64,000 nucleotides of DNA from Longimicrobiales bacterium. Its GTDB lineage: Bacteria > Gemmatimonadota > Gemmatimonadetes > Longimicrobiales > Gaopeijiaceae. Made by a program: the position numbers. The stretch lies in the NCBI GenBank assembly GCA_963422615.1, contig OY730414.1, positions 1,178,001-1,242,000 of the forward strand, given 5' to 3'. Every line of letters starts with the position of its first letter. Position 1 is the stretch's first letter. Of the stretch, positions 27,001 through 42,000 are shown piece after piece.

Positions 27001-30000
27001 AAGGCGGGCTTGTAGCTCTTCACCTGCTGGGCTGTGACGATCCAGTCGAACTGGATGGGCAATCCCACGCCGGTCTTCGCGAAGAGGTCGTCATCGACGT
27101 TGGAAACGATCCCCAGCCGGTAGCGTCGACCCAGTCGACGGAGCGCCTCGACGGTATCCGGGAAGACGGGCCAGTCCCCAACCGAGCCTGCGAAGGCGTC
27201 CCGTTCCGCTTTTGTGGGACGGAAGCCCAGGGATCGGCCCAGGCGGTCCAGGGTGATCTTGAGGACATCCCGGTACGTGCGGTAGCCTTCTCCTTGCACC
27301 CGGTGTTCGAATCGGGCGAAACCCGCCAGCAGGCTTTCGTCGTCCGAATCGATGCCGTGGATAGCGCAGACGGCCCGCAGCGCCGAAAGGATCCCGGCCT
27401 CCCAGTCGACCAGGGTGCCGTAACAGTCGAAGGTGAGGAGCTGGAACCGGGTCGGGTCGAGAAGGCGCATGACCGGACGTTCTCTCCTGTCGCCGCCGGA
27501 GGCTACATGTCCGGGAAGTCTGCCGTCGGACCCATCGTCGGGGGCACGGGCACATCCAGGAGGCGGAGGTAGACGCCCATCTGGGCCCGGTGGTGAATCA
27601 TGTGGTCCAGGATGAAACCCCGGAGAACCGCCCGCTTGGGCAGGGAGAAGCGGGTCTCGCCCCGGACAAGCAGGCTCCAGGGCGCCTGGAAGTCTTCCTC
27701 CGAGGCCCGCTCAATGGCCCCTCGGGCTGCTGCCGCATTCGTGTTCAGGGCTTCGACGAGCCGAGCGCTGGAGGCGTACTCGGCCATCGGCGGCGGGTCG
27801 CCCTCCGGGTCGATGTTGAATGTGGACTCCGCGAGGGTCGGCAGGGTCCATTGCGGCAGGTTGGCGATGTGGCTCCCCAGTTTTCCCAGCGTCCACGACT
27901 TCTCGTGGGGCCGCCAGTCTATCCGGTCATCCGGAACGGACGCCAATACCGCTCTACAACCTTCAACGACGCGGTCGAAGGCCATCAAGAAAGCTGTGTC
28001 CGACATGAACCCACCTCCGATATTTTTCGATATAGGAAAAGGCCACCAACGGCCGCCGGTGGCCAAGGCGACCGGGGACAAGCCGGAACGTCAAGTCTCC
28101 GCCGGGAGATCAGGTCCCCTCATGTTCTTCAAGGTATCTTCAAGGTAGATGAGGGAGAGACGCGGCGGAATAGCCCGCTCCGCGAGCCTCGCTGGGCGGG
28201 GCCCTCCGCCAACCCCCAGCGCCCAGTTCGGCGAACCCGGCCTCGGATGGGCCAGGCCCGGTCATGGTACCCATGGAGGCGAGCGTGGCCCGAGCAGCCC
28301 GAAGACCAGGGCGCCGGCCGGATTGGCGGGAGGCGGCTTGTCGTTTGTACTCTTGGCAACCGTGAAGGGAGCGCGATGGCCCAATCGTACGTCACGGATA
28401 CGGGTCGCGGGGCCAGCGGCCCGCGGCACAATCCTTCCGCCCACGATGGAGTAGGGCCCATGCCGAATCCCGCCCTCGGGATCCCTAGCTGAATCATGAA
28501 CGGCAAGCGGCTGCCGATCGGGGTCGGCGCGCTCTTCGTCGTCGCGCTGGGCGTCCTGTGGCGGCTGGCCCAAGCTCGGCCAGAGTGGCCATGGTTCTCG
28601 ATCGGGCTATTGCTCCTGATCGCTTCGATCTCTCTGGGCGCGGTTCCCGGCCTGCGTGCCCGCCTCGGCGCTGGGTGGCCCTGGCTGACCTTCTTCAACC
28701 TCGTGGCGGCGGGCTTCTTTGTCTTCTTCCTCTTCCAGGTAGAGACCTATCGTCAGCGCAGTGAGCGCCTCGAGGTGCGGGGCGTGTATTTCGATCCGGC
28801 TCCGGCGTCTCTGCGAATCGGCGTTGGACACGACAGCCTGGATGTTCGCTTGGAGGGCTCGCCCGAGACTTTGGACCGCTGGTTCGTTGAATTGCAGCGG
28901 GGGCCGGGAAGCGGCTACCGGATCGGATCCACCGGAGACGTGGATATGATCGAGCTTTCCGAAAAGGGCTGGCTTCGGCGCCGATCCTCGAGTCGGCGTC
29001 CGGTCCACGGCTGGGCGTTGAGCGGGTCGCGGCCCGTCACCCTGACCCTCAGGGGCCGGGAGGCGGAAGGCGCGGTGACCCTCGCCCTGGTGCGGGGGGG
29101 AAAGCGGGGCACCCTGATGTGGGATGCCCAGCGGGCCCACCTGTCCATGGAGGACGACATTCTGGACCGGCGCCTGGCGCGGGGCCTGGCCAACGGCATC
29201 GAGGTCGGAAGGTTGCCATGGGACTCGGTTCCGGACCCGGCCCTGGCCCGGGACCTCGTCATCACCCGGGCTCGCCCGGGACACGCCCCCGGCGGGGTTG
29301 TGCTGCGGCTGCCGTCGTTTCGGGTCGTGTCGAGAAGCGGGCGATGGGTCGCGCAGAGTCCCACCGTCTCCCAGAACGCCGAAACCGTGCCGGACCGGAC
29401 CGTTGCGCCCGGCGACTCGGTGTGGGTGACGTCCCGAGGGAAGACGTGGGCGTTTTCCTTGGGCGCCCTTACCGAAAGGGGTTTGGCCAGCCCCCCCGTA
29501 GCGGTCGGCTTCGTGCGCCGTCCCCGCCCGAACGGCTGGGCGCTTCCCGCTCGGCAAGACTGCGGTGGTGCGGGGGTGTGTGCTGTACTGTCGAGCCGTC
29601 CCCTTCCTCCGCCGCTGGCGCACTTCAACCTGGAAGCCTTTGGACTCGACACGACCCGCTACGCCTACCTCGCCCGCCTCTCTGTGGAGGCCGACCGCGT
29701 GTCCCTGGTCGGTGCCTGCGACAGCACGGCTTTCCCGGTCGGGGCGCGCCAACCCTCCAGGGCGTTTCCCCTGGACGGCGCTTCGGCCGGGTGCGCCTCG
29801 GCTGGCGCGACTTTGTCATCGGGGGACCGTGCGGAAGCGGGACTCCTTCTGCGCGTCCGAAGGGCCGCCGCGGGGGACCGGACCGACGTGGCCCGGACCT
29901 TGGCCGCCCTCCTCGCCATTCTGGGCGGCGCCTTCCTGGTGCTAACCGGCAACCACCGACTCAAACAAGCGGCCCGGATGGCGGGGGCCAACCCGCTCTG

Positions 30001-39000: not shown

Positions 39001-42000
39001 TGGAGAACGCGAAGATGGGCGGGGCCTCCTGCCCCCGTTGCTCGGTGGTCGCCTTCGCCATCCAACACCGGCGCATCTGGGCGACCCAGGTGGGTGATGT
39101 TCGTCTGGCGATCGAGGGAAAGGACGGACCGGCCCATCCCGAACGCCGGCTCTTCTTTCCCGGCGGGTCCAACTGGATGCGGGCGACCGCCGACCCTGGG
39201 CTGACCGGGGATTCGTCTTATAGCCGAGCCCGCCCCGATGCGATCGGCCTGGACGAAATCCCCAGTCCCCTGAGCCTTCCCGGCTGGACCGGCTCCCTGG
39301 AAGCCGCGACCCGGATCCTCTGCTACACCGACGGGTTCGAAGACGGCTGGACGCCCGCACGAACCCTGGAAGTCCTGAAGGGAGAAGACCCGGGCGACCC
39401 TCGAGGATTGGCGGCTACCCTGGTCGAAACGTCCTCCTGCGACCGGGGCGATGATGACATCACCCTTGTGGTCGTTGAAGGATTCGCGAAGGCGCCCGAT
39501 CCCCTTGCGAAGCTTCGCAACCACTTCGAAAAAGCGAGAGAAGACGATAGGCGCGAAGCCACAAGCCGACTCGCGGAGATGCAGCGGAAGCAGGGCGAAT
39601 GGGACCGGCACCTCGCAGAGACGCGCACGTTGCTCGAAGACAGGCAAAGGGAAATGCTCGCGCTGCGGAAAAGGATCGACGAAATGGCGAAGGCACAAAA
39701 AGAACACAAAGAACGGAGCGACGAACAGGTCGGTCGCTCCGCCCAGCCCGAGCAAGCAGGGCCTGGTCTTCCGGAGCCGGTCGAGATCCGGGTCAAGGGC
39801 ATACCTACGGAGGTGACGCTCCGCCCAGGGGGAGGACCCGCCTCGTCGGGTTCGAACCTGGACGGCGAGGCGGCCTCAAGCCCCCGAGGAAGGGCTGGAG
39901 GATCTCTCTGGCAGGACAAGTGGATGAGGGTCCTTTTTCGGACGTTCCTGCTGTTCATTACGGTCTTCGCCCTCCTCGGGGTGATCTGGTTGGGCGTCGT
40001 CGTTCGGGCCGGCATCGGGGCGACCGACCCGGGAGCCACGAATGATGAGACCCAGGAGGCAACGGGAGGGGAGGGGGACCCGGAGGGAGGGTCCGACCCG
40101 GGGGCAGCCGAGGAGGACTCCGCAGGGAGCCGCCCGTCTGGGTGAGCCCTGACGGACCTGGCGCGCGTGCCCCTTTGGCAGTGGTTCTATCTGGCCCTTC
40201 TCGCCACTGCGGCCGTGTGTGCAGTCCTCACCCTGCTCCGGTGGAGGAGCACGTTGGACCGGTGGCACAAGGGCGGCTTCTCGGATACGACCGCTGGATC
40301 CACCGAACTCACCGCCGAAATCGACAAGTGGGTCCAGTCTTCGGGCGGGCTGATCGGGGGGCTGGAGGCCCTGCATTTGGCCCTCGACCACCGCCACGCC
40401 CGCTGGAGGCGGGGGGCGGGCCTGCTCGTCCTGGGCGGGCTGCTGGGGACGGTCATCGGATTGGTCGGCGTTTCCGGTCAGCTGGCCGAGGTCTTTCGCG
40501 ACACGGAGAATAGCCAGATCCAGGCGGCCCGGGATCTGGGTGAGGCCCTGGGGAACCTGACTTTCGCCTTCCTCTCCACGTTGGTCGGCGTGGTCGGCGC
40601 TCTGGTACTGAGGGTTGTCCTCCTTTGGATCGAGGCGGGGGTGGGGGGATGGGCGCACGAGTTCGTGGACTGGGACCGGGCCATCGTCAATGCGGTGGGC
40701 CCGTTGGAGCGGAGCGCCAAGCGGCTTGACGAGGTATCCGACAGCCTCTTGCGTCTTGTGGGAAGCCCGGGGGAGGGGGAGCAGCGGGTGGGCGCCCTCG
40801 TGAAGACGGCGGCCGCCTTGGACCGGGCGGCCCTCGCTCTGCAAGAGGGAGTCAACGCCTGGGAGGCCCGGCTGAAGGCGTGGCGGCAGGACCGGGACGA
40901 AGCGTGGGACCGGTGGAGCCGAGAGATGAAGGAGGGACAGGGAGCCCTGGACCGAGTGATCGACAAGATGGCCAGGCGTCAAGAGGCCGAGGACGAGAGG
41001 GTCCGGGTCCTCTTGGGGGGTCTGGAAGCGGCGGTTGCGGCCGGTACGGAGACGATCGGGAAGAAGATTGCGGCGGGCGCAGCGGAGATCCGTCGCCTGA
41101 TCGAAAGTGGAACGGGACACATGGAGGGCGTCCTGCAACAGAGTGCGGACGCCCACGCAGAGCGTTTGACCACGCTTCGCCTGGCCACCCGGGAGCTCAC
41201 CCGGCACATCACGGGTTTGGTTGACCGGGCGGACAACCAAACCCAGCTGTTCCGGGGGATTCAAGAAGCGCTGGACCGGGTTGCCGGGGCGACCCAGGAC
41301 CTGGTGGAGGGCGCGGAGTCGCGCCTGGGCGACATTGGCAACAAGCACGTCGAAGCGCTGGATGCCGTTGCCGCCGAGCTTCGGAGTGCCTTCACCGGGG
41401 CCGAGCAGCGATGGGACGAGAGGTGGCGGAAGGTGTTCGAGGAGCTGCACCAGGCCACCGTTGCGCTGAACGGTCTTATGAGCCGCCTGACGAATGAACG
41501 GGACAGGGGGGTTGCCGAAAAGGAAAGCCTGAAGCGGGCCGCCGACGCGGTCGCCGAGCACTTGATGGGTCTTGAGGGTCACGTCGCAGACACCCGAAAC
41601 GTCATGCAGGATTCCCGGAACGTCATGCAGGACACAAGGGAAATCGTGATTCTCATAGAAGAAGCGTTGCGCAGAATCGGCGATCGCTTGGCCGTCTTGG
41701 ACGACGCGCCCCGGGACCGCATCCGGGACGAAGGGAGTGCGTGATGAGCCGATGCCGGCGCGTAGTCCGGAAGCGTGGCCCTTCGGCCCTTCCTGCGCCC
41801 AGCGGGTCCTCCCCCGATGCCTATCGTCCCCAGCCCTTCCATGTGTAGGGATCCGATGCGCAGGTCGGTCCACCCGGTCGCCGTCTGTATCGTTCTGGTC
41901 GGGTTGTCCCTCTCTTGGGCGGCGGTTCCCTCTGCCGGGGACGCTCAGCTTGTCCGGGGCCGGCTCGTGGAAGCCGAAGAGGAAGTCGGCGTCGGCGGGG

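What a model noticed while it worked through the whole genome (the two positions that open the first line are those of the whole stretch)
28496..41744. Third, giant and divergent SEDS-like / class-B-PBP-like pair in an accessory operon
Besides the ordinary RodA-PBP2 (g01299/g01298) and FtsW-PBP3 (g01826/g01831) pairs, the genome carries an overlapping gene pair without any Pfam/NCBIfam call: g00951 (1159 aa, many predicted TM helices plus a 370-aa beta-rich domain, C-terminus with the SEDS sequence signature) and g00952 (746 aa, TM anchor + unknown beta domain + PBP3-like transpeptidase fold with intact SxxK, SxN, KTG). I read it as a third, lineage-restricted peptidoglycan polymerase-transpeptidase machine that is accessory (patchy in Gemmatimonadota), here translationally coupled to orphan genes incl. 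a PP2C-like phosphatase and a MotA/ZorA-like channel with a coiled-coil tail, i.e. a regulated envelope-remodelling modul [...]
Evidence so far: g00952: 12 homologues among 5.8e9 proteins; invariant S404-x-x-K407, S471-x-N473, K667-T-G669 in alignment A1; AF2 model pLDDT 76.6, Foldseek top hits PBP3/PBP2 transpeptidases, E 1e-13, prob 1.00. g00951: Pfam FTSW_RODA_SPOVE only at E 0.15 (aa 1037-1116, call 35); profile A2 vs the genome's own RodA aligns aa 1001-1116 to RodA 282-387, hhalign E 0.0018 but probability only 15%, covering invariant E1030-N1031-x-F and P1107-x-T-G...P1114-F, the counterparts of SEDS 'TDFxF' and 'PxTGxxLPF' (motif names recalled); whole-model Foldseek found nothing at E<=0.001, FtsW of the divisome complex 8p1u_A at rank 38, prob 0.89. 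Pair adjacent in 23 of 27 related loci, nearly all Gemmatimonadota MAGs; in [...]
(Added by a program. Inside this text positions count along the whole contig: contig position 1,178,001 is position 1 of the stretch shown here. "Call 12" and the like, gene names such as g00115 and contig names such as C1 are that model's own, and its searches are not shown. The text may have been shortened before it was handed on; [...] marks where a part breaks off. The agent that wrote the report below was given it as the finding of a first reader that could run no searches.)

Follow-up and report, generated by a model that had tools for sequence, protein, structure and literature searches.

The report
Accessory cell-wall synthase with sensor cassette
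This bacterium carries a rare, extra and heavily remodelled cell-wall-building enzyme pair that sits next to genes resembling attack-sensing switches, so it may patch the wall on demand instead of serving ordinary growth.

Summary
The pair is real and is a third SEDS/class B PBP module besides RodA-PBP2 and FtsW-PBP3. The membrane part of 28496-31975 folds like RodA/FtsW (Z 19.0, 322 of 341 residues aligned). The catalytic Asp is Glu here and Asp in 11 of 12 fused relatives. The partner keeps SxxK, SxN and K[TS]G in 31 of 31 homologues, and 1,700-1,900 aa SEDS-transpeptidase fusions exist. Both 'unknown beta domains' are probably degenerate, outward-facing FHA folds. The family was found in 16 of 401 Gemmatimonadota genomes. 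In 7 of these it lies in an operon with double-GTPase-like genes, which were found in none of the other 385. This genome lacks that GTPase and carries instead a kinase-phosphatase-ZorAB-like cassette seen only here and in one close strain. Best reading: an accessory, signal-gated peptidoglycan synthase, possibly the wall-patching effector of an envelope-sensing conflict system. Activity, trigger and the link to the cassette are untested, and a conserved RodA active-site loop is missing. Giant SEDS-PBP pairs beside kinase/phosphatase genes are already in print for other phyla.

The parts
28496..31975 (+). Giant SEDS-fold protein, 1159 aa: 3 N-terminal TM helices, outward-facing beta region with degenerate FHA folds (aa about 85-460), one further TM, then the 10-TM SEDS core with 4 extra helices inserted after its TM2; putative catalytic E1030
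   Evidence: AF2 aa 455-1159 pLDDT 82, pTM 0.86; VIA Z 19.0 RodA, 18.9 FtsW, next unrelated 9.3; E1030 aligns to the Asp of the genome's own RodA/FtsW; beta region; helix numbering and topology inferred
31968..34208 (+). Class B PBP-like transpeptidase, 746 aa: TM anchor aa 10-28, FHA-like beta domain in place of a canonical pedestal, transpeptidase domain with S404xxK, S471xN, K667TG
   Evidence: Motifs in 31 of 31 rows; profile hits in the PDB are class B PBPs (best E 8.7e-6; fused family, E 5.7e-16); whole-length homology to the C-terminal half of the fusions, 100%
34199..35746 (+). Soluble orphan, up to 515 aa (start uncertain); FHA-like motifs by eye only
   Evidence: 10-nt overlap with PBP stop; no Pfam, PADLOC or NCBIfam hit; FHA profile match not convincing
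35750..37753 (+). Soluble orphan, 667 aa; weak lead to FHA-domain proteins
   Evidence: Good coding score; only itself among 7998 candidates scored; ESM Atlas best 0.87 with low recognition; not above shuffles against an FHA profile
37762..38736 (+).
   Evidence: ESM Atlas 0.97, recognition 3529, ten best family hits all kinase clan; motifs; no Pfam hit
38733..40145 (+). PP2C-like phosphatase, coiled coil and one C-terminal TM (aa 406-424), 470 aa
   Evidence: Pfam SpoIIE E 0.015, PP2C_2 E 0.076; NCBIfam Stp1 E 0.041; acidic motifs present; GTGA overlap with the kinase
40167..41744 (+). MotA/ZorA-like protein, 525 aa: 3 TM helices and a helical tail of about 370 aa
   Evidence: Pfam MotA_ExbB E 0.00048; PADLOC ZorA best E 9.2e-5, mostly over the tail; TMs
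41856..43682 (+). Carboxypeptidase-regulatory-like repeat protein, probably a passenger between the MotA-like and MotB-like genes
   Evidence: Pfam E 1e-23; two stand-alone paralogues elsewhere in the genome, 55% and 47% identical; 1701 of its bases are skipped in one contig of a close strain, run X6
43679..44452 (+).
   Evidence: Pfam OmpA E 5.6e-12; PADLOC ZorB3 E 1.2e-13 including the TM; motifs; ATGA overlap with the previous stop

Best explanation
The first two genes encode an accessory peptidoglycan synthase: a SEDS-fold glycosyltransferase that polymerises lipid II with E1030 as the catalytic base, bound through its TM8/TM9 to the anchor of a class B transpeptidase that cross-links the new strands. 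Degenerate FHA-fold domains on the outer face of both proteins replace the usual pedestal and active-site loop and serve as docking or gating surfaces, not as phosphothreonine readers. It is not a growth or division enzyme but an on-demand one, gated by a signalling module. In relatives the switch is a double-GTPase module; in this genome it is most likely the adjoining cassette: a wall-anchored ZorAB/MotAB-like ion motor senses envelope disturbance, and the kinase/PP2C pair, perhaps through the two orphan beta proteins and the inserted cytoplasmic loops of the SEDS protein, turns the synthase on to patch or thicken the wall locally. Shown here: folds, motifs, fusion, gene context. Inferred: catalysis (about 0.75), control by the cassette (about 0.5), an envelope-damage or invader trigger (about 0.35).
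For: SEDS fold over the whole core; Asp or Glu at the catalytic position in 142 of 147 short rows (E) and 12 of 12 fused rows (11 D, 1 E); D861 matches the RodA Asp159 motif; transpeptidase triad in 31 of 31; fusions with both Pfam domains; predicted complex 0.79 against best control 0.00, a mark reached by 116 of 157 solved and 2 of 215 mismatched pairs, runs agreeing in at least 70% of contacts, partner pLDDT at least 61, anchor on TM8/TM9 as in RodA-PBP2, possibly from memory. Accessory: 16 of 401 genomes while canonical SEDS were in 26 of 26 relatives. Switch modules: GTPase genes in the same operon in 7 of those 16 and in 0 of 385 others, at three places in the tree. Cassette: gaps of 21 nt or less, or overlaps, from 28496 to 41744; kept in order in a close strain.
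Against: The RodA periplasmic loop 2 residues (Gln111, Glu114, Lys117; Trp102 doubtful) and Pro257 have no clear counterpart, and Asp is replaced by Glu, so polymerase activity may be changed or lost. Nine of 16 genomes have the pair without the GTPase, and most related loci show it alone with no partner at all, so a linked switch is not required. The cassette has no close homologue elsewhere. No ZorC/D/E-like gene among the 11 proteins scanned. GTPase hits are under the Pfam cut-off (best 25.1 of 27 bits) and the GAP1 label rests on one hit at E 8e-4. FHA identity of the two orphans is unproven.
Confidence: 0.5

Rival explanations
1. A developmental or morphogenetic synthase (budding, stalk, resting-cell wall) under Ser/Thr kinase control, as for actinobacterial RodA-PbpA beside PstP and PknA/B (recalled), with no role in conflict.
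For: Kinase and phosphatase genes flank similar giant SEDS-PBP genes in Senegalimassilia and Pedobacter, where the authors propose morphogenesis (PMC12516126); same pairing here.
Against: Scattered presence within genera (for example 2 of 24, 3 of 6) and changing neighbours fit a mobile accessory trait better than a body-plan trait; double-GTPase and ZorAB-like partners are conflict-type modules.
Confidence: 0.2
2. The SEDS-fold protein no longer polymerises lipid II; it is a scaffold or transfers another undecaprenyl-linked glycan, while the transpeptidase cross-links existing wall or attaches something to it.
For: Loop 2 motif missing, Asp to Glu, SYGG motif replaced by GLNxW; the O-antigen ligase WaaL shares the fold weakly (Z 9.3).
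Against: The acidic residue, the D861 motif and PxTG are invariant or nearly so across split and fused members; fused members keep Asp; closest folds are RodA/FtsW by 8 Z units.
Confidence: 0.15
3. The pair builds or opens wall for a trans-envelope machine (secretion or contact apparatus) energised by the MotAB-like motor and timed by a kinase/phosphatase/FHA switch as in type VI secretion (recalled).
For: Best fold matches of the beta region are secretion-system FHA domains (EssC, type VIIb core, type III; Z 5.3-6.3); the MotB-like protein's best NCBIfam hit is TssL long form, below cut-off.
Against: Those Z values are in the range of common arrangements; no secretion gene was seen among the neighbours annotated; those FHA domains are cytoplasmic whereas these are inferred to face outward.
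Confidence: 0.1
4. The pair is a self-contained two-gene unit and the downstream cassette is an unrelated island that landed next to it (compatible with any role of the pair).
For: 0 of 41 related loci carry any cassette gene; the cassette's middle genes are 2-5 points lower in G+C than the pair; the paralogous passenger gene also overlaps its neighbour, so overlap alone proves little.
Against: Ten-base overlap with the PBP stop and tight packing through seven genes; order kept in a strain about 4% different; kinase/phosphatase neighbours recur beside giant SEDS-PBP genes in other phyla.
Confidence: 0.3

Closest known systems
SEDS-class B PBP synthases (RodA-PBP2, FtsW-FtsI)
   Same: 10-TM fold, catalytic acid position, DxG and PxTG motifs, PBP anchor predicted on TM8/TM9, transpeptidase triad.
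   Different: 1159 aa with 8 extra TM helices and an outer FHA-fold region; Glu for Asp; loop 2 motif absent; no canonical pedestal; accessory and outside mre/dcw clusters.
Non-canonical giant SEDS/'only-TPase' pairs and chimeras (Bosea lupini, Pedobacter ginsengisoli, Senegalimassilia faecalis; PMC12516126)
   Same: Large SEDS with an outward beta-rich region next to a pedestal-less transpeptidase; fused forms; kinase and phosphatase genes alongside; coexist with normal FtsW/RodA.
   Different: That paper's main text has 0 occurrences of 'FHA' or 'gemmatimonad' and reads the beta region as pedestal-like and the role as morphogenesis. Homology of those proteins to this family was not tested here.
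Double-GTPase/GAP1 conflict systems (Kaur et al. 2020, PMC7159879)
   Same: Relatives of the pair lie in operons with one or two DO-GTPase-like genes and a large GAP1-position gene; kinase plus PP2C is one described theme.
   Different: No FtsW or transpeptidase in that paper's text or two held supplements; GASH, FNIII, vWA and tubulin parts not seen; this genome has no such GTPase.
Zorya ZorAB (PMC11946911)
   Same: 3-TM MotA-like protein with a long helical tail plus a MotB-like protein with TM Asp and peptidoglycan-binding domain.
   Different: No ZorC/D/E found; a passenger gene lies between the two; upstream genes are a kinase, a phosphatase and a wall synthase.

Membership tests
SEDS glycosyltransferase | 10-TM RodA/FtsW fold | tested here: met
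   Z 19.0, rmsd 3.9, 322 of 341 aligned to 8tj3_B; Z 18.9 and 17.1 for the other two SEDS chains; next 9.3
SEDS glycosyltransferase | Catalytic acid in periplasmic loop 4 (RodA Asp262, FtsW Asp297) | tested here: met
   E1030 aligns with it; E in 142 of 147 short rows, D in 11 of 12 fused rows. Conservative change, by alignment only
SEDS glycosyltransferase | Loop 3 Asp (RodA Asp159) and loop 5 PxxG | tested here: met
   D861/G863 and P1107/G1110 invariant in 49 rows, aligned
SEDS glycosyltransferase | Loop 2 motif (RodA Trp102, Gln111, Glu114, Lys117) | tested here: not met
   No Q, E or K counterpart in the family consensus; the model has only a 4-residue loop before TM4; a conserved W787 aligns with low confidence
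SEDS glycosyltransferase | Cognate class B PBP, adjacent or fused | tested here: met
   37 of 41 loci; fusions; complex 0.79 vs 0.00
SEDS glycosyltransferase | Lipid II polymerisation | not testable with these tools
   Needs an assay
Class B PBP | SxxK, SxN, K[TS]G triad in a transpeptidase domain, TM anchor, no GT51 domain | tested here: met
   31 of 31 rows
Class B PBP | Canonical pedestal (PBP_dimer) domain | tested here: inconclusive
   No Pfam hit at E up to 1; the region matches an FHA profile through the fused relatives; this domain was not folded and searched here
FHA phosphopeptide reader (beta domains of the pair) | FHA fold | tested here: inconclusive
   25 of 50 VIA rows name FHA in the title, about 15 more are FHA-type by recall, but best Z is only 6.3; fused profiles 89% and 79% vs shuffles up to 3.3%, direct window-family profiles only 1.4% and 5.7%; one relative passes the Pfam FHA cut-off
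FHA phosphopeptide reader (beta domains of the pair) | G-R, S-x-x-H phosphothreonine pocket (motif recalled) and cytoplasmic location | tested here: not met
   G kept, R and SxxH absent in the aligned profiles; topology inferred as outward, with conserved Cys pairs
Zorya | ZorA-like and ZorB-like membrane pair | tested here: met
   scores do not separate ZorAB from other MotAB-like pairs
Zorya | Soluble ZorC/ZorD/ZorE effectors in the operon | tested here: not met
   No such PADLOC hit among 11 proteins scanned, including all cassette genes
Double-GTPase/GAP1 system (this locus) | DO-GTPase and GAP1 genes | tested here: not met
   None in G000 with local profiles, Pfam PF19993 or alignment A9; genome 98% complete, one contig
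Double-GTPase/GAP1 system (relatives' loci) | DO-GTPase plus GAP1 plus GASH or FNIII component | tested here: inconclusive
   DO-GTPase hits E 1.6e-5 to 0.05, all below cut-off; GAP1-M E 8e-4 in 1 of 12 scans of GAP1-position proteins; profiles of the GAP1-position groups match each other weakly (E 0.058 and 0.27); GASH/FNIII not seen

The most novel reading that the evidence does not exclude
A class of bacterial conflict system whose effector is a cell-wall synthase: an envelope sensor (double-GTPase module in relatives, ZorAB-like motor plus kinase/phosphatase here) switches on a dedicated SEDS-PBP enzyme that walls off or repairs the site of phage injection or predator attack, with FHA folds reused outside the cytoplasm as docking domains.
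Probability: 0.3. Interest if true: 0.88.

Novelty: new variant of a known kind. Interest (0 to 1): 0.62.

Why it matters
SEDS-PBP pairs are known as growth, division and sporulation enzymes. A family below the reach of Pfam, with Glu at the catalytic site, no loop 2 motif and outward FHA folds, would widen the structural rules for the polymerase and offers natural single-chain fusions for assay. Its repeated coupling to conflict-type switches raises a testable idea I did not find in the searches made: wall synthesis as a defence effector. It would also give double-GTPase systems, so far only predicted, a measurable output.

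Tried and rejected
Foldseek on both models gave nothing at E up to 0.001; SEDS chains ranked 1-3 for the membrane model. FHA identity of the two orphans: local HMM E 0.04-0.08; window scan 19.3 for 34199-35746 against a shuffle maximum of 16.5 and 15.3 for 35750-37753 against 16.5; hhalign 1% or less; not accepted. No likeness of the orphans to the GTPase or GAP1-position profiles. No orthologue of the MotB-like gene covering its TM among 401 genomes: the 24 other matches start at residue 55 or later. No DO-GTPase in five split-pair genomes (the same profile finds G307 and G129). Family not found in viral contigs or plasmids. One of 250 further genomes of another phylum had a pair, beside TPR and FHA-TPR genes. 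No sigma-70 promoter and no convincing terminator (23 found, 14.9 expected). No RNA holder listed. A match of the MotA-like tail elsewhere in the genome is a 72-bp intergenic fragment, not a paralogue. Earlier findings of the scan: nothing in three look-ups. Nine VIA rows match the insert in the beta region to class II fusion proteins at Z 3.6-4.9; treated as chance. Neighbourhoods of the Acidobacteriota-type fusions could not be seen.

Full report
Observation. The window is G000:C1:1178001-1242000 of a single-contig, 2.57-Mb, 98% complete genome. The two large ORFs are as described and overlap by 8 nt. Seven genes follow each other from 28496 to 41744 with overlaps or gaps of at most 21 nt; after about 110 nt come a carboxypeptidase-regulatory-like gene and, overlapping its stop, a MotB-like gene ending at 44452. 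The genome also has ordinary RodA, FtsW, two class B PBPs and one class A PBP.

The first gene is a SEDS-fold protein. A model of residues 455-1159 from 149 rows (pLDDT 82) matched E. coli RodA at Z 19.0 (322 of 341 residues, rmsd 3.9), FtsW at 18.9 and Thermus RodA at 17.1 among 48,161 chains; the next row scored 9.3. A profile search of 1.84 billion representatives gave 321 hits, among them proteins of about 1,700-2,000 aa; many carry a Pfam transpeptidase hit, several also FTSW_RODA_SPOVE, and P0249 passes that cut-off. One is named as a Gemmatirosa protein and several as Acidobacteriota. The fused profile matches 22 canonical SEDS at 96-98%, the split profile at 48-88%. E1030 aligns with the Asp of the genome's own RodA and FtsW; it is E in 142 of 147 rows under 1300 aa (two of these rows were mis-cut) and D in 11 of the 12 fused rows that passed the motif filter. 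Against this, the loop 2 residues that matter in RodA and FtsW (PMC10449877 passages; PMC8765783 passages and section 7) and RodA Pro257 have no clear counterpart. From helix order I infer 18 TM helices: three at the N-terminus, one after the beta region, ten of the core and four inserted after core TM2 with long basic, low-confidence loops.

The second gene is a class B-like transpeptidase. The triad is intact in 31 of 31 aligned homologues, profile hits in the PDB are class B PBPs, and it aligns end to end with the C-terminal half of the fusions. It follows the SEDS gene in 37 of 41 loci; the other four are cut short. A predicted complex of the SEDS membrane part with PBP residues 1-290 scored 0.79 against a best control of 0.00 (mark reached by 116 of 157 solved and 2 of 215 mismatched pairs; runs agree in at least 70% of contacts; partner pLDDT at least 61), with the anchor on the inferred TM8/TM9 as in RodA-PBP2. 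A like complex is solved, so this may be memory; the fusions are the better evidence.

The beta domains. The model of residues 80-465 (pLDDT 86) returned FHA domains in most of 50 rows (25 by title, about 15 more by recall), best Z 6.3, which alone is not decisive. The corresponding region of the fusions matches a profile of 19 FHA domains at 89%, and the region between SEDS and transpeptidase at 79%, against at most 3.3% for 15 shuffles each; these regions match the window family's at 95% and 97%, whereas direct matches of the window family are weak, 1.4% and 5.7%. The phosphothreonine pocket (motif recalled) is absent. Helix count, basic inside loops and conserved Cys pairs place both domains outside the membrane; this is inference.

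The cassette. 37762-38736 is a protein kinase (motifs), 38733-40145 a membrane-anchored PP2C-like protein (weak hits), 40167-41744 a 3-TM MotA/ZorA-like protein with a long tail and 43679-44452 its MotB/ZorB-like partner. This is the architecture of the ZorAB sensor-motor (PMC11946911, abstract only), but no ZorC/D/E hit was found among 11 proteins. The two genes after the PBP are orphans; FHA is only a lead. No cassette gene is in any of 41 related loci, though many have little downstream DNA. In run X6, a strain about 4% different from another study, two contigs carry the pair and the cassette in the same order, and one joins 41976 to 43678, skipping 1701 bases of the intervening gene; the remaining 5' stub suggests loss in that strain. 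That gene has two stand-alone paralogues, so it is probably a passenger.

Relatives. The family was found in 4 of 41 near relatives, and in 13 and 16 of 401 phylum genomes with a narrow and a broad profile, so it is accessory. One fused lineage lies behind GTPase - 820 aa - GTPase genes (G307, G292, and 33 of 34 metagenome loci with at least 700 nt upstream, of 44 fetched; these are close kin). The split pair of G129 is followed by two GTPases, and a third subfamily (G165, G272, G323, G032) follows a GAP1-position gene, a P-loop GTPase and a TM-TPR gene. A profile of these GTPases hit 7 of 401 genomes, apparently the same draw, all seven beside the synthase. The seven built the profile, so only the other side is informative: 0 of 385 genomes without the synthase, with five candidates scored per genome. 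Nine carriers, G000 among them, lack it. In a tree of the SEDS core (27 of 37 family rows, 10 dropped for lack of the cut motif, plus 8 canonical), the window's split clade (100/99) joins a fused, GTPase-linked clade (96/91), and GTPase-linked rows fall at three places; an ancestral link with later losses is the simplest reading but was not tested.

Mechanism. Most likely an on-demand peptidoglycan synthase. Glycan polymerisation by E1030 and cross-linking by S404 follow from established SEDS-PBP chemistry and are untested. Control by the kinase/phosphatase and sensing by the ZorAB-like motor are inferred from gene packing, one strain and the recurring conflict-type neighbours. Rivals are a morphogenetic role, a non-polymerising scaffold, wall work for a secretion-like machine, and a chance neighbourhood.

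What is known. PMC12516126 (passages, section 18, first part of the discussion, one truncated supplement) already reports giant SEDS proteins with outward beta-rich regions beside pedestal-less transpeptidases, and fusions flanked by kinase and phosphatase genes, in other phyla; its Tables S8 and S11 were not seen and may list members of this family. PMC7159879 (sections 27-29, passages, two held supplements) defines double-GTPase systems without FtsW or transpeptidase; its neighbourhood source data may not be among the files held. PMC2875224 (passages) links related GTPases with OmpA proteins and kinases, not with SEDS. Searches (listings) showed no paper joining these themes; the library lacks most subscription papers.

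Verdict. A real, divergent SEDS/class B PBP family: a new variant of a known kind. The new elements are the Glu catalytic site, the outward FHA folds and the coupling to double-GTPase or kinase-ZorAB-like modules. Interest 0.62; the defence-effector reading has probability about 0.3 and would deserve 0.88.

Noticed in passing
window 40902-40973 and G000:C1:111318-111389: A 72-bp piece of the MotA-like gene is 93% identical to an intergenic stretch 1.1 Mb away; origin unexplained.
   Followed up: partly
window 44527-44601 and 45704-45776: An intergenic 75-bp stretch is 87% identical to a stretch inside the downstream SusC-like gene; the region 44522-44703 is replaced in run X6.
   Followed up: no
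window 16611-22216 (-): Type ISP restriction-modification gene followed by a short overlapping fragment of the same kind; a DNA methylase at 1979-2929. These are the defence genes seen in the window.
   Followed up: no
window 44839-49062 (+): SusC-like TonB-dependent receptor appears split over two frames (44839-46023 and 45695-47725), followed by a SusD-like ORF with a low coding score; a run of 17 C lies at about 44612.
   Followed up: no
L072:15453-16430, L107:15289-16299, L075:10488-11327, L039:7467-8543: A 280-370 aa exported coiled-coil protein lies next to the synthase in 34 loci, fused and split alike; a candidate periplasmic activator; not found in G000.
   Followed up: partly
L235-L242 (G165, G272, G323, G032): Seven-gene operon of a third subfamily: small TM, coiled-coil TM, GAP1-position, P-loop GTPase, TM-TPR, SEDS with Glu at the catalytic site, PBP; almost no Pfam calls.
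   Followed up: partly
P0181, P0259: Fused synthases with extra C-terminal domains: TonB_C (2017 aa) and transglutaminase-like (1911 aa).
   Followed up: no
window 27503-28081 (-): DinB-family gene upstream of the pair; a homologue also lies upstream of the pair in L031, L032 and L038.
   Followed up: no
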